Source: Candidatus Heimdallarchaeota archaeon
GTDB lineage: Archaea; Asgardarchaeota; Heimdallarchaeia; JABLTI01
Reading direction: 5' to 3'
Length of the DNA stretch: 32,000 bases
Assembly: GCA_030614005.1 (NCBI GenBank)
Contig: JAUWKS010000020.1
Location: forward strand, 22,034 to 54,033
Shown here in pieces: positions 1,127-8,043 of the stretch. Both the position numbers and the translations under genes were made by a program. The stretch's first letter is position 1. The number at the start of each line of letters is the position of its first letter. A model generated the notes under the pieces. It was not told where the DNA came from. It saw nothing but the letters and a program-made list of their open reading frames with translations, and did not search any database.

Positions 1127-1981
1127 TTAGTCTGTTTTTTCAGTTGCTAATTTTTTTTCTAATACTTCGACTAACAACCTAATATCATTAATGCATTCTC
1201 TTTCATGCTCGATAAATCTACGAATGATTTTCTTTATCGTCCATTTCTCTTTTGGGTACTCTGGAAGGTTTTCAGAAGTAAATATTTCATCTGCATGATT
1301 TGCATAATTGGAACGTATTAATGCAATTGCTCCTAGTTGCACTTTGAAAATTCGTTCATATAGTGACAATGATTCAAGTTCATCCGTTGTTAAGTTTATT
1401 ACTCCTAAGAATTTTTCTTCTATCTCTGTTCCAAAACGAGATATATAGGCAAATTCTGTTTTGTAGATCTTCGTTAGCGCTTCATTTAGTGTTGGTTCCC
1501 CTTCTAACACTTCTAGTTTTCTTTGCTCATTCGAGAATTGAAAGACTATTCTCATTAGTGCTTCTGGAAGAGACTTTATTACTTCTAAATAAAATTCAAA
1601 ATCTTCTTTGCTTATTTCTTCGTGATCCGACTTGAATAATGCCGATTTGTGAGTTGATACACTTTGCTGTGCTACATTAGTGATTTCTTCGATTATTTGC
1701 ATTTCGTTGATTCCTGCAAGAAAATCTTTTGATTTTACCATGTACTCGTTTTTTGCAAAATCCTTTGATAGTAGCCATTCACTGTATTTCTTTACGTCTT
1801 TGAGTAGCGCATCAATTGCAGCTTCTTTTGTTGGTGCTCTTGCACAGCATCCAAGAAATTCTGCCGCATGGGCATAGAAAAGCTCTTTCCCTTCTTCTAG
1901 ATTAATTTTTAGTTCTGCCAAATCCTTTAACGACCATTTGAATATTTTAGTTTTTTTCTTTTTTCTCTCTAAAATTTTCAT
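1127..1981 (-). CDS. HicB-like N-terminal domain fused to DinB-like helical domain
   Basis: N-terminal FYAHAAEFLGCCARAPTKEAAIDAL resembles the HicB beta-beta-beta-alpha fold. C-terminal EKWTIKKIIRRFIEHE resembles DinB-family WsxrkvlRRxxxH. Confidence 0.55.
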   Translation of the reverse strand: MKILERKKKKTKIFKWSLKDLAELKINLEEGKELFYAHAAEFLGCCARAPTKEAAIDALLKDVKKYSEWLLSKDFAKNEYMVKSKDFLAGINEMQIIEEITNVAQQSVSTHKSALFKSDHEEISKEDFEFYLEVIKSLPEALMRIVFQFSNEQRKLEVLEGEPTLNEALTKIYKTEFAYISRFGTEIEEKFLGVINLTTDELESLSLYERIFKVQLGAIALIRSNYANHADEIFTSENLPEYPKEKWTIKKIIRRFIEHERECINDIRLLVEVLEKKLATEKTD

Positions 1982-2072: not shown

Positions 2073-3941
2073 TTATTCGTCGTCTCTTTCTACCCATGAG
2101 AACTTATTTTGTAATGTTTTCGAGTAATAGTTTCTCCAATCATAGTCTACTTCTTTTCCCCAAGCATGATATATTCTTGGATCAATATACGACTTCAAGC
2201 TCGTTCCTAAATTCCACACTTTAGTTTTCTTAGAAATTCGTTCTTGTGTTTCGATTTTCTTATATGCTTCTTTTGCTTTGTAGACACGTTCCTTAGCTGT
2301 GCCTAAGCTATTTTTTCCTCTAGCGATTTGACTTTGAGCAATTTCTATGCGCTTTTTCGCAGTGCCAACTCGTTTCCTCTGAGTTTGTACTTTCTTCTTT
2401 TGTTTCGCACAAGCTTTAGTGAGTTTCACTTTTTCTTTTGAATCTTGTTCGTTGTTAGAAAGATCTTCTAGCTCAAGAAAATCACCTTTTGTTTGTTCGA
2501 GAATTTTTTGCTGCGCTTTTTCTTGTTTTCGTCTTTCCTTTAGATTCTTCTTAAGTTCTTCAAGACGTTCTTCTCTACCACTTTGGTTTAGTTTTGCTTT
2601 TTCAATGCGCTCACTTGATTTAATCTTTCGTTCTCTAAATCGTTGAATCCTATTTTCCCAATTCTTAGGTGCTTGTTTCATATGAGTACACACAACTGCT
2701 GCCTCGCGATTAGCCATCGTAGCAGCTTCTTTCTTCTTGTACTCTGGGTCATCTGCTGAAGTGTCAGATTCTTCTAAATGAGCTGAGACGATATTTGTTG
2801 CATGAAACGTTCTAAATACTTTTGCCGTAAGATCAGGCACAATATTACTGAAGAAATCATTAACCTGAGTACTACCAATTTTCGAGAAAATCTGAGGTTT
2901 ATCCTTTCCACTCTTTTCTGCTTCATCTATTAAAAATTGCAATTCTTTTATAATATATAATGGGAAAGTAGTATCTTTATTCCATTCCACAGAATCTTTT
3001 CCAAGAAAATTGAAATTTACCTCCTCACCATCAATTGTAACATGTTCAGGTCTTAAAGTGGTAGCACCTACGGTATCTGCTTCATCTTCATCCTTTTCGT
3101 CACCAACTCTCAGAATTAGTTGATCAATGATGTAACAGGCAAGAGCAATTTTTCTTGTCCGAGGATTATCACTTTTAATACCTTTATCAATTTCTAAACG
3201 AATTTTCTCTAATTGTCCCGCAACTTTCCTAGCCTTGTTGAATTTTTCGATTTCTCTATCTTGTTTTATGGGTGTATTATCTGATAGCCAGACGTATTTT
3301 GTTTTTTTGGAAAGTTTATCTTCCCATTTCGCAACCCAAAGACATTCTGGTTCCCAAACGATTTCTTTCCATTTCTCTTTCCAATTCTCTTTCTTCTGTT
3401 CTTCAGATAACTCACTTATATTGAGAACAATATCTTTTGAAGTAGGACCTTCTTTCCATTTACCTCGCATTGGATGTTCTCCTCGACCCATAAATATACT
3501 ACTAGGTTCAGCAGTCCAAGCTCCAATTTCCACTTTCATTTCGTCTAACAAGGTTGTGCCATAATATTCTTTTAGCTCTTCTCGAACAACCTTTCGGTCT
3601 TCTCTTGCTTGCTTTTTTTGTTCTTTAGTCAAACTTTCTTTCTCAGCTCTTACTGATTCAATGTGTTCAATTACCTCTGAAAAATCAATGTCATCATCTG
3701 TGAGATTGTCATATCCTAGTTTTCTACTGAAATCGGCAAAGAAATTTTTACAAAAAATAGTATCATCTACATAGACTGTAGAAAGTTTTCTAACCCAAGC
3801 AATAGCCATTTGTTCTTGCATTGGATCGAGTTCTATCCTAGTATCTTTTACTCCAATTGTTAATCCAAGATACTTAATTTCTGAAATCATAATTCCATTG
3901 TGAGTTAGTTTTTTCATTTCTACCAAGGCACTGAACCTCAT
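2073..3941 (-). CDS. top1: DNA topoisomerase IB (eukaryote-like)
   Basis: The catalytic pentad motifs are intact: LILRVGDEK (R), FLGKDS (K), KVFRTF (R), VCTH (H), LGTSLKSYIDPR (Y). N-terminal LTHNG and FMGRGEHP motifs are present. Alternative start ATG at 3917. Confidence 0.95.
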   Translation of the reverse strand: MRFSALVEMKKLTHNGIMISEIKYLGLTIGVKDTRIELDPMQEQMAIAWVRKLSTVYVDDTIFCKNFFADFSRKLGYDNLTDDDIDFSEVIEHIESVRAEKESLTKEQKKQAREDRKVVREELKEYYGTTLLDEMKVEIGAWTAEPSSIFMGRGEHPMRGKWKEGPTSKDIVLNISELSEEQKKENWKEKWKEIVWEPECLWVAKWEDKLSKKTKYVWLSDNTPIKQDREIEKFNKARKVAGQLEKIRLEIDKGIKSDNPRTRKIALACYIIDQLILRVGDEKDEDEADTVGATTLRPEHVTIDGEEVNFNFLGKDSVEWNKDTTFPLYIIKELQFLIDEAEKSGKDKPQIFSKIGSTQVNDFFSNIVPDLTAKVFRTFHATNIVSAHLEESDTSADDPEYKKKEAATMANREAAVVCTHMKQAPKNWENRIQRFRERKIKSSERIEKAKLNQSGREERLEELKKNLKERRKQEKAQQKILEQTKGDFLELEDLSNNEQDSKEKVKLTKACAKQKKKVQTQRKRVGTAKKRIEIAQSQIARGKNSLGTAKERVYKAKEAYKKIETQERISKKTKVWNLGTSLKSYIDPRIYHAWGKEVDYDWRNYYSKTLQNKFSWVERDDE

Positions 3942-4022: not shown

Positions 4023-4727
4023 TTATCTTACTTCACAAACTTCAAAATTTGCTTTAATTTTTTCACAAGCATCTTCAAGAATACCTAAGCGAAATGGTTG
4101 AAGCTTTTCAAATTCCTTATCTAAACACTTCAAGGGTCTGAATTGTTGAATATACAATCGCTTTGCTCCTTTGATCATTTCCGCAATAATTGGAATATCA
4201 TGTTCAGGATCGATTATTGTAGGAACAACTGTTGTTCTAAATTCATAATCAATATCAGAATCAATTATGATTTTAATTGATTTCAGAATATTTTTGATGT
4301 TCACTTTCTTGCCAGCAGCGAGGTGATATTTCTCTGGAATTGCTTTAACATCCATAGCAATATAATCAAGCAATTTGTCATCAATAAGTTTCTGAATTAC
4401 ATCAGGATGATTACCATTGGTGTCAATTTTTGTTTTTAACCCCATTCCTTTGATAATTTTCAGAAAATCAGGCAATCGCTTACTGAGAGAAGGTTCTCCT
4501 CCAGTAATTGACACTCCATCCAGCCATTTGCTCTTTGATCTCTTTTCAATTTCTGCAAGAATTTCATTCGTATCAAAACTTTTTACAGCATCTAAAGGAA
4601 TTAAATCCGGATTGTGACAGAATGGACATCGAAAATCACATCCTGCAAGAAAGATACTATCTACAATTAGACCTGACCACTCAATAATTGAACCCTGTTT
4701 ATACCCCTTAATTTCAAGTCCTACCAA
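4023..4727 (-). CDS. nrdG: anaerobic ribonucleoside-triphosphate reductase activating enzyme (radical SAM)
   Basis: Radical SAM motif CDFRCPFC, plus SITGGEP, KIDTNG and YEFRTT; adjacent to nrdD. Confidence 0.92.
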   Translation of the reverse strand: MVGLEIKGYKQGSIIEWSGLIVDSIFLAGCDFRCPFCHNPDLIPLDAVKSFDTNEILAEIEKRSKSKWLDGVSITGGEPSLSKRLPDFLKIIKGMGLKTKIDTNGNHPDVIQKLIDDKLLDYIAMDVKAIPEKYHLAAGKKVNIKNILKSIKIIIDSDIDYEFRTTVVPTIIDPEHDIPIIAEMIKGAKRLYIQQFRPLKCLDKEFEKLQPFRLGILEDACEKIKANFEVCEVR

Positions 4728-4746: not shown

Positions 4747-5007
4747 TTATTTTGCTTGAAGTTCTTTTTGAACTTGCTCTATTGGAGGTACTTCTCCTCT
4801 CCAAGCTTTAACTTCACTATCGGATTCATCGACAATAATCAAAGAAGGTGTTGAAAGAACATCAAAATAAACTGATTCTGATAAACCTTCTTCATCATCT
4901 AAATTGAACCACTCAACAACAGTACCTTTTTCTTCAAGTTTTTTTGCCATAGCTTTTGCTGGAGGGCAATTTGGACAATCTGCTTTTGTAAATACTTTTA
5001 ATTTCAT
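4747..5007 (-). CDS. thioredoxin/glutaredoxin (NrdH-like redoxin)
   Basis: CPNC active site and STP cis-Pro motif in 86 aa; GAGGA SD; lies between nrdD and nrdG. Confidence 0.85.
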   Translation of the reverse strand: MKLKVFTKADCPNCPPAKAMAKKLEEKGTVVEWFNLDDEEGLSESVYFDVLSTPSLIIVDESDSEVKAWRGEVPPIEQVQKELQAK

Positions 5008-5119
5008 TATCTATCTATCCTCAAATTTTTTTCTGTCTGTTTTACTATTAATCTAAAAAATAAATATAAAAAGATAAAGGAAGAGAAGAGGCGAACGAGG
5101 TTCGACCTGATCATGCACC

Positions 5120-5353
5120 CTACACGTCATCAGACCAATAATTGCCTTTTTGTCTTCTCTTTAACTCTGATTTCTTAGAGTTGTTCCAGTTATCAATTAT
5201 ACTAAAGTATCCTACTACCCTGCTAATACCGTAAACATTGTCGCTGTTACAGTATGGGCAATTAGGAGTAGAACACGTTTCACCTGCATGTTCTATATTT
5301 TGTTCTGTTGTTACTTCGGTTATTTTTGTTATAGTTGTTTTTGCCTGTTCCAT
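5120..5353 (-). CDS. nrdD: stand-alone C-terminal glycyl-radical segment of class III RNR (half Zn ribbon + RVVGY loop)
   Basis: CPYCNSDNVYGISRVVGYFSIIDNWNNSKKSELKRR matches the NrdD C-terminus. It has its own ATG with GAGGA 8 nt upstream and is in a different frame from the main nrdD ORF. Confidence 0.85.
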   Translation of the reverse strand: MEQAKTTITKITEVTTEQNIEHAGETCSTPNCPYCNSDNVYGISRVVGYFSIIDNWNNSKKSELKRRQKGNYWSDDV

Positions 5354-5421
5354 ACAATTTTTCCTCGATAGTTTATTTTTCTTTTTACGCCATTTTTCGA
5401 TTTGTTTTCTTTTTCAGCCCA

Positions 5422-7842
5422 CTATTGACCTTGTACAGAAGAACTTGTTGATCTGCCAAAGCCCCTACTAACTTGTCCACAATCTCTACAGACTGTAAAC
5501 TCTGGTGAAAACACTATCTGTGCGCTCTGGGTATTGTCCCATGTTTTCTTAACCAGATTCATTATTGATTCCGCCGAGGGTTTTTGCTCGCCGACGAATA
5601 TGTGTGTGATAGAACCGCTTTCAATGAGGGTATTGAATTTCCCTTGTTTTGAAATTCTATCAATAATATCAATAGGTGCATCAGCTGCGAAGTGTGCACT
5701 ATTGGTATAGTAAATTGATCCTTCGTCAATATCACCCTTGACATAATGAATACTGTCAGGATATTCCTTAAGATCAGTTCTCGCGAATTTAAAAGGAGCA
5801 CTTTCTCCTGGAGTTTCTTCAAGAGTAACAGTTAGACCATGTAGTTTTTGGAGAGCTTTTGCTTTTAGGTTCATTCCAGCAATAATCTTTAGGCCTAGTT
5901 TGTAGGCTTTTTCGCTGTCATGTTGTTCTTCATCAATAAGATATTGAACACATTCATTTAATCCTATAACGCCTATAATGTAAGTTGCTTTTTCCAAATC
6001 AACATAAGGTCTACCATCTTCAGCAATCATACCAATTTGCCAAAGGGTGCCATTTTCTTGAGTCATGAGTTGAGTAATGAATTCCTTCTTCTCAAGATGA
6101 GCTTCCATTGCTAAATCCATTGCTCGTCTAATTTCTTCAATTGTTTTCTTTACGTTACCTTTTCCGGCTCGATACGCTGCTTGTGGTAAATTAATGCTCA
6201 CATTTTGGAACCCACAATAACGCATGCTTTCAGGATGTTCAATCATATACATGTCAGTGATTGTTGTTTTTAATCGACAGCACATTGAAAGATTGATTTC
6301 ATCGCGATCAAATATGAAATAAGTTGAACCATTTTCAGAGGATATTTTACATGCCAGTTCCAACAATTTATACTGTTCAGGATCATCAAAGGAACTTTGA
6401 TCAATATGTAAATCAAATTTTGGAAATGGGAAGACTTTCGATTCAGAATCTCCTTCTAACCAAACTTCCATTAATGCTTTAGCAAATAATTGTGTTTCTT
6501 TTTCATACTCGCCATAATTTTTTCCAGTATATTTACCACCAGGGCCAATTGCGGGTATGTTTTTGAGATATCTTGGAATGCCTAAATGAATATTAAAATC
6601 TACAAAAAGGGTTTGTCCCCCTCTTGAGAACGCATTTTGACTGCAAGAATAAATCAATCGCTGTGCTTCTTGTTTTATTTGTTTATATGGGACACCAACA
6701 AAATAAGGGGCATAAAAGATATTCAGATAAGCTAATCCTAAAGCACCGGCATAATATGCTTGCATTGAAGCTAAGAAGGTATTAAGATGTCCAGTAAGAG
6801 TATCTGCATGATTTGCTGGGTTTGAAACGGTTGAGAGATTTAACAAGTTCAATCCATATTTTTTGATATATTCTAAGCTATGAGCAGAGCAATACACCCT
6901 GACTGGGAAACCCAAATCATGCAGGTAAATCATTCCTTTTCTGTGTGCATTTGCTACTTCCTTGGAGAAGAGCTCTTGAAGAGCAAATTTTTTCAATATT
7001 GCTTCTGCAATAGCTAAGTTCACCGCCTCTGGATTATTGGCGACTACGTTACTATTTTCTTTGCTTTTTGAAAGTATAAGTTGTTTAAGATCGAATGTGG
7101 GTATACCAATAGTTTTCTGTTGAACCAATTTAGTATTATACCCTCGAGTAAATAATTCATTATCAACCAAACTTCTGATAAAATCAACTGATATTACACC
7201 TATGCCAGATGCAAATATCTTTCTTTCAACTTCTATGGAAACAGAATCAGCATCTGCACGATTTAATCCTGCTTCTTTAACCAAAGCGGCAGTAATTTTT
7301 GTTCGGTCCCAACCAGAAATTTCCTCTCGAGTATCAGCTGATACCATTAACAGAAGTTCAGTAGAATCACGACTTTTCACATCTACTTCCTTTACTACTT
7401 TTAATTTCTCCAACTCACGTTCAAATGAAGCGATATCTGTGAATCGTCTATAAACTGAAGCATAACGAATATAAGCAACTTCATCGAGTCCTCGGAGTTT
7501 TTCCATAACTAATTCTCCTACGACACTAGCTTCAATTTCCAATTCTTCATTTTTTCTTAATTCACTTTCAATTTCATCTATAACGTCTTCAATTTCCTCA
7601 GAAGAAATAGGTCTTTTTTCGCAGGCTTTTACGATACCTTTTTTGACTTTCTCACGATCAAATGGTTCCCTACGTTTATCCTTCTTTACAATAGTAAGCT
7701 TCACTTGTTCTATTCGTTCATAAGTTGAAAATCGCTTTTTACATTGAAGACATTCTCTTCTTCGTCTATTTGCTTTCATGTCTTCTGACGCTCGTTTATC
7801 AACGACTCGAGTATTTGGCGATTGACAGTAAGGGCATTTCAT
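5422..7842 (-). CDS. nrdD: NrdR transcriptional repressor fused to class III (anaerobic) ribonucleotide reductase NrdD lacking the Gly-radical tail
   Basis: aa 1-147 are NrdR (CPYC..VVDKR..RRRRECLQCKKRFSTYE, ATP cone, VAYIRYASVYRRF). A second ATP cone (GWDRTKI) follows, then the NrdD core (YLHDLG, VYCSAH, SQNAFSRGGQ, FPFPKF, SMCCRL, EETPGES, YYTNS). The ORF ends after one CRDC knuckle. Confidence 0.93.
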   Translation of the reverse strand: MKCPYCQSPNTRVVDKRASEDMKANRRRRECLQCKKRFSTYERIEQVKLTIVKKDKRREPFDREKVKKGIVKACEKRPISSEEIEDVIDEIESELRKNEELEIEASVVGELVMEKLRGLDEVAYIRYASVYRRFTDIASFERELEKLKVVKEVDVKSRDSTELLLMVSADTREEISGWDRTKITAALVKEAGLNRADADSVSIEVERKIFASGIGVISVDFIRSLVDNELFTRGYNTKLVQQKTIGIPTFDLKQLILSKSKENSNVVANNPEAVNLAIAEAILKKFALQELFSKEVANAHRKGMIYLHDLGFPVRVYCSAHSLEYIKKYGLNLLNLSTVSNPANHADTLTGHLNTFLASMQAYYAGALGLAYLNIFYAPYFVGVPYKQIKQEAQRLIYSCSQNAFSRGGQTLFVDFNIHLGIPRYLKNIPAIGPGGKYTGKNYGEYEKETQLFAKALMEVWLEGDSESKVFPFPKFDLHIDQSSFDDPEQYKLLELACKISSENGSTYFIFDRDEINLSMCCRLKTTITDMYMIEHPESMRYCGFQNVSINLPQAAYRAGKGNVKKTIEEIRRAMDLAMEAHLEKKEFITQLMTQENGTLWQIGMIAEDGRPYVDLEKATYIIGVIGLNECVQYLIDEEQHDSEKAYKLGLKIIAGMNLKAKALQKLHGLTVTLEETPGESAPFKFARTDLKEYPDSIHYVKGDIDEGSIYYTNSAHFAADAPIDIIDRISKQGKFNTLIESGSITHIFVGEQKPSAESIMNLVKKTWDNTQSAQIVFSPEFTVCRDCGQVSRGFGRSTSSSVQGQ

Positions 7843-7971
7843 TATTCTAGTTCACTCGTTTTTTCTTAGGCACTATTTTCCTGCGCCGATTTTTATTTTG
7901 GCGTTTTATGTCGGTTCTAGGAGACGGTCTCACCTCTAAGCGAGTTTGTTTCCTTTACAGCCCACCCTATA

Positions 7972-7987
7972 CCACCACATCTGGTGG
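7972..7987. promoter_or_regulatory. NrdR box (proximal)
   Basis: CCACCACATCTGGTGG is a near-perfect 16-bp palindrome fitting the NrdR consensus acaCwAtATaTwGtgt. Confidence 0.8.
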
Positions 7988-8002
7988 TTTGTGGTCCCTC
8001 AA

Positions 8003-8018
8003 ACACAACATATTGTAT
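8003..8018. promoter_or_regulatory. NrdR box (distal)
   Basis: ACACAACATATTGTAT lies 31 bp start-to-start (15-bp spacer) from the other box, the canonical tandem NrdR arrangement. Confidence 0.8.
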
Positions 8019-8043
8019 ATGTTATTTGTTTCTGAACGCTTTG

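What the first reader, a model, noticed from the sequence alone, without database searches (positions are those of the whole stretch)
5120..5500. Class III RNR split inside its Zn ribbon: glycyl-radical loop encoded as a separate 77-aa protein
Seen: the main ORF stops 16 residues after the first Zn knuckle (CRDC). The second knuckle (CPYC) and the radical-bearing RVVGY loop are in a separate ORF in another frame, 68 nt downstream, with its own ATG and GAGGA SD. The two knuckles are about 230 nt apart, versus roughly 10-15 codons in typical NrdD. Rejoining needs both a TAG readthrough and a frameshift, so a single sequencing error does not explain it. Established: O2 cleaves glycyl-radical enzymes at the radical Gly, and E. 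coli YfiD/GrcA is an autonomous replacement radical domain for pyruvate formate-lyase. Inference: a two-chain NrdD with a replaceable radical subunit, perhaps clasped by a shared Zn site. The small chain also has an H-x4-C-x4-C-x2-C set that could bind Zn alone.
Basis: partly seen in the sequence, partly recalled or inferred. Interest (0 to 1): 0.85.

Follow-up and report, generated by a model that had tools for sequence, protein, structure and literature searches.

The report
Two-chain anaerobic ribonucleotide reductase, detachable radical subunit
This Asgard (Heimdall-type) archaeon makes its only detectable ribonucleotide reductase from a large catalytic chain plus a separate 77-residue protein carrying the radical glycine and half of a zinc site, and it holds two further loose copies of that small protein, a layout not described in the papers I could search.

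Summary
The 806-aa NrdD chain ends 18 residues after the first zinc knuckle (CRDC). A 77-aa ORF 68 nt downstream, in another frame, carries the second knuckle (CPYC) and the RVVGY glycyl-radical loop.

- In nine relatives the stop codon, gap length and frame offset all vary, while both protein ends are conserved.
- A contig from another study reproduces the junction without indels.
- This NrdD is the only RNR found in the 90%-complete genome.
- A complex model (0.89; best control 0.00) docks the small chain as in one-piece NrdD. The four Cys from the two chains meet, and the Gly loop lies against the finger-loop Cys pair.
- None of the 12 genomes of this family shows more than one large chain; most hold 2-3 small-chain genes. 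The two unlinked copies in this genome are under purifying selection.
- The same split dominates a large DPANN/CPR clade.
- A second, distant NrdD lineage is split at a different point, after knuckle 2, so fission happened at least twice.

Whether the small chain is exchanged after oxygen damage, as GrcA is for pyruvate formate-lyase, remains inference. This scan has found split NrdDs before on other DNA. I found none described in print.

The parts
5422..7842 (-). NrdD large chain (806 aa): NrdR-like Zn ribbon and ATP cone (1-147), second ATP cone, catalytic barrel with MCCR finger loop (520-523); stops at TAG after the first Zn knuckle
   Evidence: PF13597 at 380 bits on profile 1-517/562; TIGR02487 at 346.9 bits against a cut-off of 326; TIGR00244 NrdR at 196 bits on residues 1-147
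5479..5490 (-). First Zn knuckle, C785-R-D-C788, on the large chain
   Evidence: C785 and C788 are invariant in 33 large chains. In the model they contact C32 and C35 of the small chain
5425..5478 (-). 18-residue tail of the large chain (GQVSRGFGR + Ser-rich end). G794 and R797 are invariant and lie in the modelled interface; residues 798-806 are variable and outside it
5354..5421 (-). 68-nt intergenic gap with GAGGA (5362..5366) 8 nt before the ATG; no Rfam match and no unusual fold
   Evidence: one search gives z = -0.02. In relatives the gap runs from -20 (overlapping genes) to over 1000 nt
5120..5353 (-). Small radical-bearing chain (77 aa): variable N-terminal region of about 27 residues, second Zn knuckle, glycyl-radical loop, C-terminal NWN.SK..ELKRRQ.GNYW segment
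   Evidence: Aligns to P. copri NrdD (8P23) residues 693-735. pN/pS is 0-0.17 among orthologues
5249..5260 (-). Second Zn knuckle, C32-P-Y-C35, on the small chain
   Evidence: Invariant in 43 small chains; touches C785 and C788 in the model
5207..5221 (-). Glycyl-radical motif R45-V-V-G48-Y49
   Evidence: Invariant. In the model, residues 46-51 contact large-chain residues 469-473 and the finger-loop residues 522-523
4747..5007 (-). Thioredoxin/glutaredoxin-like protein (86 aa, CPNC), the likely reductant
   Evidence: Thioredoxin_3. The same gene order is found in most related loci
4023..4727 (-). NrdG2-type radical-SAM activase (234 aa); the only one in the genome
   Evidence: TIGR02495 at 192.9 bits against a cut-off of 131

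Best explanation
This is an obligate two-subunit class III (anaerobic) ribonucleotide reductase. The 806-aa chain supplies the nucleotide-sensing N-terminus, the catalytic barrel with its Cys-Cys finger loop, and the first CxxC knuckle. The 77-aa chain supplies the second CxxC knuckle and the glycine (G48) on which the single NrdG activase installs the radical.

The two chains assemble by strand pairing (large 779-788 with small 39-45) around one zinc ion held by two Cys from each chain. This zinc clasp replaces the missing peptide bond and can keep the small chain tethered while its Gly loop swings between the activase and the barrel. The neighbouring thioredoxin-like protein is the reductant, which fits the MCCR-type finger loop.

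The two unlinked paralogues in the same genome (contig C103, 80 aa; contig C110, about 74 aa) are most simply further copies of the same subunit. They would serve the same large chain and be separately transcribed.

Shown computationally: the gene structure, its conservation and purifying selection, its sole-RNR status, the docking model, the ratio of small to large genes, and two independent fission points.

Inferred: zinc binding across the chains, radical installation on the small chain, and use of the paralogues by the same large chain.
For: - Split anatomy.
- Nine relatives have a different stop codon (TAG, TAA or TGA), a gap of 46-80 nt and frame offsets of 0, 1 or 2, yet keep the conserved tail and the MEQAK start.
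- DPANN relatives often have overlapping ATGA-type junctions.
- An independent assembly shows no indel at the junction.
- No class I/II RNR, one NrdD core and one NrdG2 were found in the 90%-complete genome. The two PFL-like enzymes keep their own radical domains.
- The core of the small chain is under purifying selection: pN/pS is 0-0.17 while pS reaches about 1.
- Complex model: score 0.89 in the median run; best of 3 controls 0.00. That mark was reached by 58 of 80 solved complexes and 2 of 110 mismatched pairs. Runs agree in at least 74% of contacts; partner pLDDT is 65-67 across the runs (at least 64 by the tool's own statement). C785/C788 meet C32/C35, and the Gly loop lies on the finger loop.
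- Of the 120 nearest large-chain clusters, found without using the small chain, 87 end after knuckle 1.
- Across the 12 family genomes there is at most one large chain each and 2-3 small-chain genes in most.
- The loose copies have pN/pS of 0-0.21 and keep every invariant position of the family.
Against: - There is no protein, transcript or biochemical evidence.
- The complex model may pass only because it resembles solved one-chain NrdD structures, so it shows likeness and not binding.
- The genome is 90% complete, so a second RNR or a second large chain cannot be excluded. However, none of 12 relatives shows a second large chain.
- Nothing links the loose copies to the operon by position or by a shared regulatory motif that I could see.
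Confidence: 0.85

Rival explanations
1. Exchangeable radical cartridge (the spare-part reading). Splitting pays because oxygen cleaves the chain at the radical glycine, so only a 9-kDa protein has to be remade and re-activated instead of a 93-kDa enzyme. The unlinked paralogues would be a reserve or a differently regulated supply, analogous to GrcA/YfiD for pyruvate formate-lyase. This extends the best explanation rather than excluding it.
For: - Three small-chain genes against one large-chain gene, retained across the family and also in reduced DPANN genomes.
- The loose copies are under purifying selection.
- The radical domain was split off at least twice independently, at different points.
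- The variable N-terminus lies outside the modelled interface, like the disordered N-terminus of YfiD (review PMC13450708).
Against: - The adjacent small chain is the regular subunit, not a spare.
- Exchange, renewal and oxygen dependence are argued only by analogy.
- The neighbours of the loose copies are not oxidative-stress genes: HD-domain, DegV and PlsY genes near one; Arf/Rag-like GTPase and Roadblock genes near the other.
- A zinc clasp could make the complex tight rather than exchangeable.
- An earlier check in this scan priced the same reading low on other DNA.
Confidence: 0.25
2. Neutral gene fission. The inter-knuckle loop is merely a permissive site. The split and the duplicated small genes persist without any advantage over a one-piece enzyme.
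For: Some unsplit relatives carry long linkers of 20-25 residues at the same spot, so the loop tolerates expansion. Split genes are common in reduced DPANN/CPR genomes (own knowledge).
Against: - Recurrent fission at two positions that both free the radical domain.
- The extra copies are kept under strong purifying selection in small genomes.
- The split has lasted across a deep clade, in 87 of the 120 nearest clusters.
Confidence: 0.3
3. One chain is made after all, by recoding (TAG readthrough plus frameshift, or ribosome hopping), RNA splicing, or protein trans-splicing by a split intein.
For: In a few relatives the two ORFs are in the same frame, separated by one stop codon (L005/L006 TGA, L010 TAG). 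In this window an Asn precedes Cys32, which superficially resembles a C-intein junction.
Against: - Frame offsets of 0, 1 and 2, and gaps from -20 to over 1000 nt among relatives.
- Near-identical proteins with a 47-nt versus a 48-nt gap (L007 versus L005/L006).
- A conserved Met start and a Shine-Dalgarno-like GAGGA.
- Unlinked loose copies exist.
- No Rfam match and no unusual RNA fold in the gap.
- The 18-residue tail is far too short for an N-intein, and the Asn is not conserved.
Confidence: 0.03
4. Pseudogene or assembly/sequencing artefact.
For: None beyond the interrupted frame itself.
Against: - The same junction is seen in independent assemblies.
- It is conserved in 11 relatives and in dozens of distant genomes.
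- Both parts are under purifying selection.
- It is the only RNR found in the genome.
Confidence: 0.01

Closest known systems
One-piece class III RNR NrdD with NrdG, double-cysteine (MCCR) thioredoxin-type subclass (T. maritima 4COI/4U3E, N. bacilliformis; also P. copri 8P23, phage T4 1H78)
   Same: Same barrel, finger loop, Zn-ribbon cysteines, RVxGY glycyl-radical loop, NrdG2 activase and redoxin partner. Together the two chains cover the whole family profile.
   Different: The radical domain and half of the Zn ribbon are on a separate 77-aa polypeptide. Extra unlinked copies of that polypeptide exist. The N-terminus is a complete NrdR-like module.
GrcA/YfiD of E. coli and Y06I of phage T4 (autonomous glycyl-radical cofactors, spare parts for pyruvate formate-lyase)
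   Same: A small stand-alone protein made of a variable or disordered N-terminus plus a glycyl-radical domain that docks into a large partner's barrel. It is presumably activated by the partner's own activase (review PMC13450708).
   Different: It is not homologous to the PFL radical domain: the Pfam hit is NRDD, not Gly_radical. It carries a Zn half-site. The partner has no radical domain of its own, so the operon copy is obligatory and not a spare. The 2026 review states that spare parts are known only for formate lyases.
Split class II RNR NrdJa/NrdJb of Pseudomonas aeruginosa, and 'genes-in-pieces' phage RNRs (Aeh1 NrdA; phage nrdD interrupted by introns, inteins or homing endonucleases)
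   Same: An RNR catalytic subunit encoded by two consecutive ORFs whose products must associate (cited in PMC9669993 and PMC3653736).
   Different: Those are class I/II enzymes, or are interrupted by mobile elements. None separates the radical-bearing element, none has extra loose copies, and here no mobile element lies in the gap.
Second split type in a distant NrdD lineage (loci L092-L096; small chains starting MVKTKCEVYSRVVGY)
   Same: The large chain lacks the Gly loop, a small chain of 41-79 aa lies directly downstream, and nrdG follows.
   Different: The cut lies after knuckle 2, so the whole Zn ribbon stays on the large chain. The large chains are only about 25% identical to this one and group with unsplit NrdDs of other Heimdall-class families.

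Membership tests
Class III RNR catalytic subunit NrdD (PF13597 / TIGR02487) | Catalytic barrel with the family's sequence signature, scoring above curated cut-offs | tested here: met
   PF13597 at 380 bits (cut-off 26.2); TIGR02487 at 346.9 bits (cut-off 326.35) for the large chain
Class III RNR catalytic subunit NrdD (PF13597 / TIGR02487) | Finger-loop cysteine(s) for the thiyl radical | tested here: met
   M520-C521-C522-R523, with the cysteines invariant in 33 relatives. This is the double-cysteine motif described in PMC9669993
Class III RNR catalytic subunit NrdD (PF13597 / TIGR02487) | C-terminal glycyl-radical loop (RVxGY) on the same polypeptide | tested here: not met
   The large chain stops at profile position 517/562. 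The motif lies on the separate 77-aa chain. The feature is met only in trans
Class III RNR catalytic subunit NrdD (PF13597 / TIGR02487) | Four-Cys Zn ribbon next to the radical loop | tested here: inconclusive
   All four Cys are present and invariant but divided 2+2 between the chains. They are juxtaposed in the model. Metal binding is not testable here
Class III RNR catalytic subunit NrdD (PF13597 / TIGR02487) | Dedicated radical-SAM activase NrdG in the operon | tested here: met
   TIGR02495 NrdG2 at 192.9 bits (cut-off 131.15) at 4023..4727
GrcA/YfiD autonomous glycyl-radical cofactor | Homology to the PFL-type radical domain (PF01228) | tested here: not met
   The small chain hits NRDD only. 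The only PF01228 matches in the genome lie inside the two PFL-like enzymes
GrcA/YfiD autonomous glycyl-radical cofactor | Stand-alone small protein carrying the radical glycine | tested here: met
   ORFs of 77, 80 and about 74 aa in this genome
GrcA/YfiD autonomous glycyl-radical cofactor | The partner enzyme has its own radical domain, which the small protein replaces after oxygen cleavage | tested here: not met
   The only NrdD large chain lacks the domain. Rescue itself is not testable with these tools
Split RNR (NrdJa/NrdJb type) | Catalytic subunit encoded by two consecutive, separately translated ORFs conserved among relatives | tested here: met

The most novel reading that the evidence does not exclude
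The small chain is an exchangeable radical cartridge. After oxygen destroys the glycyl radical and cuts the 9-kDa chain, a fresh copy is activated by NrdG and clipped onto the undamaged large chain through the shared zinc site. That copy could come from the operon gene or from either of the two loose genes. This would be the first repair-by-replacement system for a glycyl-radical enzyme outside pyruvate formate-lyase. It would also be a class III counterpart of the separate radical-bearing subunit of class I RNR.
Probability: 0.25. Interest if true: 0.85.

Novelty: new variant of a known kind. Interest (0 to 1): 0.68.

Why it matters
Class III RNR is described in the literature as one catalytic chain with a C-terminal radical domain. 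A June 2026 review states that spare-part proteins are known only for formate lyases, and that it is 'yet to be determined' whether they exist for other glycyl-radical enzymes (PMC13450708).

Here the radical domain of the only RNR found in an Asgard archaeon is a separate gene product. It is held, by inference, through a zinc site built from both chains, and three genes for it face one gene for the large chain. The same design dominates a large DPANN/CPR clade and arose a second time at another cut point.

This gives a concrete and easily cloned system for three questions:
- Can a glycyl radical be installed on a free 9-kDa protein?
- Can the protein be swapped after oxygen damage?
- What does the NrdD zinc ribbon do?

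It also matters for annotation. The small ORFs are labelled hypothetical or as fragments, and large chains without them could be mistaken for pseudogenes.

Tried and rejected
- **Expression.** No RNA holder was listed for the 1.2-kb stretch. A second search found one metatranscriptome holding only 0.06 of the words.
- **RNA elements in the gap.** Rfam found nothing in 4900-5700. The gap RNA folds no better than shuffles, z = -0.02.
- **Split intein.** Rejected. The tail is 18 residues, and the Asn before Cys32 is not conserved.
- **Shared operator between the operon and the loose copies.** By eye, the palindromes upstream of nrdD have no counterpart upstream of the loose copies. This was not tested statistically.
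- **Stress-gene neighbourhood of the loose copies.** None found.
- **Literature.** Four full-text searches and six papers read gave no description of an NrdD whose radical domain is a separate protein.
- **Other partners for the loose copies.** The PFL-like enzymes keep their own radical domains.
Full report
**Observation.** On the minus strand the window carries an operon.
- A large NrdD ORF lies at 5422..7842 (806 aa).
- A 68-nt gap follows.
- A 77-aa ORF lies at 5120..5353.
- A thioredoxin-like gene lies at 4747..5007.
- An NrdG2-type activase lies at 4023..4727.

The large chain ends ...SPEFTVCRDC plus 18 residues and a TAG. The small chain starts at an ATG 8 nt after a GAGGA. It holds H22, C27, C32-P-Y-C35 and R45-V-V-G48-Y49. 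The two ORFs lie in different frames (offset 2). Pfam NRDD covers profile positions 1-517 on the large chain and 509-561 on the small one. In P. copri NrdD (8P23) the large chain aligns up to residue 688 and the small chain aligns from residue 693.

**Artefact, pseudogene or recoding?** None of these fits.
- A Logan contig from a different study spans the junction (5287-5900) with three substitutions and no indel. Two further contigs are identical over their parts.
- All 11 other genomes of the same family have the radical loop in an open frame of about 80 aa.
- In nine of them where the junction is on the contig, the stop codon is TAG, TAA or TGA. The gap to the ATG is 46-80 nt and the frame offset is 0, 1 or 2.
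- Across these same loci the tail (C.DCG.VSRGYGR...) and the start (MEQAK...) are conserved as protein.
- Two loci with identical proteins differ by one nucleotide in gap length (47 versus 48 nt), which changes the frame relation.
- No fixed readthrough, frameshift or hop can therefore be at work.
- The gap has no Rfam match and no unusual fold.
- The tails are too short for a split intein, and the Asn before Cys32 is not conserved.
- The 41-codon core of the small chain has pN/pS of 0-0.17, with synonymous sites near saturation.
- In the 90%-complete genome I found no class I/II RNR, one NrdD core and one NrdG2. This split enzyme is thus the only RNR detected.
- The two PFL-like glycyl-radical enzymes of the same genome keep their radical domains in-chain.

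**How the chains fit.** I ran a complex prediction with residues 255-806 of the large chain, a zinc ion and the small chain, each protein with its own alignment.
- The score was 0.89 in the median run, against 0.00 for the best of three controls.
- That mark was reached by 58 of 80 solved complexes and 2 of 110 mismatched pairs in the tool's calibration.
- The runs agree in at least 74% of contacts, and the partner pLDDT is 65-67 across the runs (at least 64 by the tool's own statement).
- Large-chain residues 779-788 pair with small-chain residues 39-45.
- C785 and C788 touch C32 and C35 with expected errors below 1 A.
- The Gly loop (46-51) contacts residues 469-473 and the finger-loop residues 522-523.
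- Small-chain residues 1-27 and large-chain residues 798-806 lie outside the confident interface.

One-chain NrdD structures are solved, so this pass shows likeness to them and not binding. It does agree with conservation. All four Cys, plus G794 and R797 of the tail, are invariant. My inference is that the zinc ribbon built from both chains replaces the missing peptide bond as a tether. The MCCR finger loop (motif as in PMC9669993) and the adjacent redoxin point to a thioredoxin-type reductant.

**Extra copies.** The own genome has two further small-chain genes that are not next to any NrdD.
- One lies on contig C103 (80 aa). It sits tail-to-tail with an HD-domain gene, near DegV and PlsY genes.
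- One lies on contig C110 (about 74 aa). It sits among Arf/Rag-like GTPase and Roadblock/LC7 genes.
- Across the 12 family genomes there is never more than one large chain, and most hold 2-3 small-chain genes.
- The loose copies keep every invariant position. The C110 copy differs from the operon copy at 4 of 41 core positions.
- Their pN/pS is 0-0.21.
- DPANN genomes also show an operon copy plus loose copies.
- Only one large chain and one NrdG2 exist, and the other glycyl-radical enzymes are complete. The same large chain is therefore the only evident partner for the loose copies.

**Spread and origin.** A scan of one genome per species with the small-chain alignment returned 80 loci.
- About 75 have the radical loop in an open frame of 49-102 aa. 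Usually this lies directly after a large chain that ends behind knuckle 1, and it is followed by the redoxin gene and nrdG.
- The labels are Heimdallarchaeota, many DPANN lineages and some CPR bacteria.
- Junctions range from overlaps (-20 to -1 nt) to gaps of over 1000 nt.
- A search with the large chain alone avoids bias from the small chain. Of the 120 best clusters, 87 end after knuckle 1, 32 are one-piece and 1 is of another kind. All Heimdall ones are split.
- Of the best 150 representatives at 50% identity for the small-chain profile, 106 are at most 120 aa long.

A second lineage is cut elsewhere.
- In loci L092-L096 the large chain keeps both knuckles (CPIH...CP.C).
- There a small chain of 41-79 aa begins MVKTKCEVYSRVVGY, directly after knuckle 2.
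- 427 clusters of such short proteins exist, and 116 of 117 inspected lack any CxxC before the Gly motif.
- In a tree of 46 large chains, the first split type forms one clade (SH-aLRT 88) with unsplit bacterial sisters.
- The second type (support 100) groups with the unsplit NrdDs of other families of the same Heimdall class. At least two fissions are needed.
- The Heimdall family clade sits among DPANN rows. This fits transfer of the whole operon, but the direction is not established.

**Meaning.** The two-chain enzyme is well supported (0.85). The attractive extension is that the small chain is swapped after oxygen cleavage, as GrcA/YfiD does for pyruvate formate-lyase.
- In favour: the ratio of small to large genes, the repeated fission and the variable N-terminus.
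- Against: nothing shows exchange, the operon copy is a regular part and not a spare, and the loose copies are not near stress genes.

I put this reading at about 0.25, and a purely neutral fission at about 0.3.

**Known or new.** The papers I could search describe split class I/II RNRs and phage nrdD genes interrupted by mobile elements. They do not describe an NrdD whose radical domain is a separate protein. A June 2026 review says spare parts are known only for formate lyases, and that it is yet to be determined whether others exist.

This scan has already reported split NrdDs on other DNA, including a CPR bacterium, a spirochaete, another archaeon and phages.

The points specific to this report are:
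- the Asgard host;
- the cut between the two zinc knuckles, with the inter-chain zinc site that follows from it;
- the sole-RNR status;
- the one-large, three-small gene ratio across a whole family;
- direct evidence for two independent cut points.

Noticed in passing
window 7402-7842 (-): The first 147 residues of the large chain are a complete NrdR-like module (Zn ribbon plus ATP cone). TIGR00244 scores 196 bits against a cut-off of 125, and the module aligns end to end with solved NrdR repressors (9FVR and others). It is followed by a second ATP cone. Many relatives in the split clade carry the same Pfam PF22811 domain.
   Followed up: partly
L050, L055, L060, L064, L075, L076, L086, L092-L096 (small chains); proteins P0081-P0092: Many DPANN small chains end in CxC, CC or a single terminal Cys (for example ...ECECK, ...DCGCRK, ...CGCQ). 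This recalls the redox-shuttle Cys pairs of class I/II RNR tails. The window's own small chain has none.
   Followed up: no
L092-L096; P0081-P0200: A second, much more distant NrdD lineage is split after the second Zn knuckle. Its small chains are 41-79 aa and start MVKTKCEVYSRVVGY. 427 clusters of such short proteins are in the protein collection.
   Followed up: partly
L097-L100 (other families of the same class): The one-piece NrdDs of sister Heimdall-class families carry a thioredoxin-like CP.C segment fused after the radical domain. Their open frames of 1176-2398 aa suggest inteins.
   Followed up: no
window 2073-3941 (-): A eukaryote-type topoisomerase IB (Topoisom_I_N, Topoisom_I and Topo_C_assoc domains) lies directly downstream of nrdG on the same strand.
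   Followed up: no
L102 (G000:C110:58700-66275): The C110 loose small-chain gene sits in a cluster of an Arf/Rag-like small GTPase and two Roadblock/LC7 genes, plus several ORFs without any Pfam match.
   Followed up: partly
L036, L055, L060, L064, L076: In some DPANN/CPR loci, 220-1211 nt separate the large and small chain genes. Other DNA, possibly another gene, has been inserted between them without loss of either part.
   Followed up: no
L057, L074; protein P0299: A subgroup of large chains carries an extra Cys-rich segment after knuckle 1 (CPHCG...IICGD....GGCGK) before the stop. This may be a second small Zn module.
   Followed up: no
window 1127-1981 (-): A 284-aa ORF downstream of the topoisomerase gene has no Pfam match.
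   Followed up: no
window 7960-8030 (-): Two palindromes lie upstream of nrdD (around AACATATACAATATGTT and CCACCAGATGTGGTGG). Other readers noted them as possible NrdR boxes. I saw no counterpart upstream of the loose small-chain genes.
   Followed up: partly
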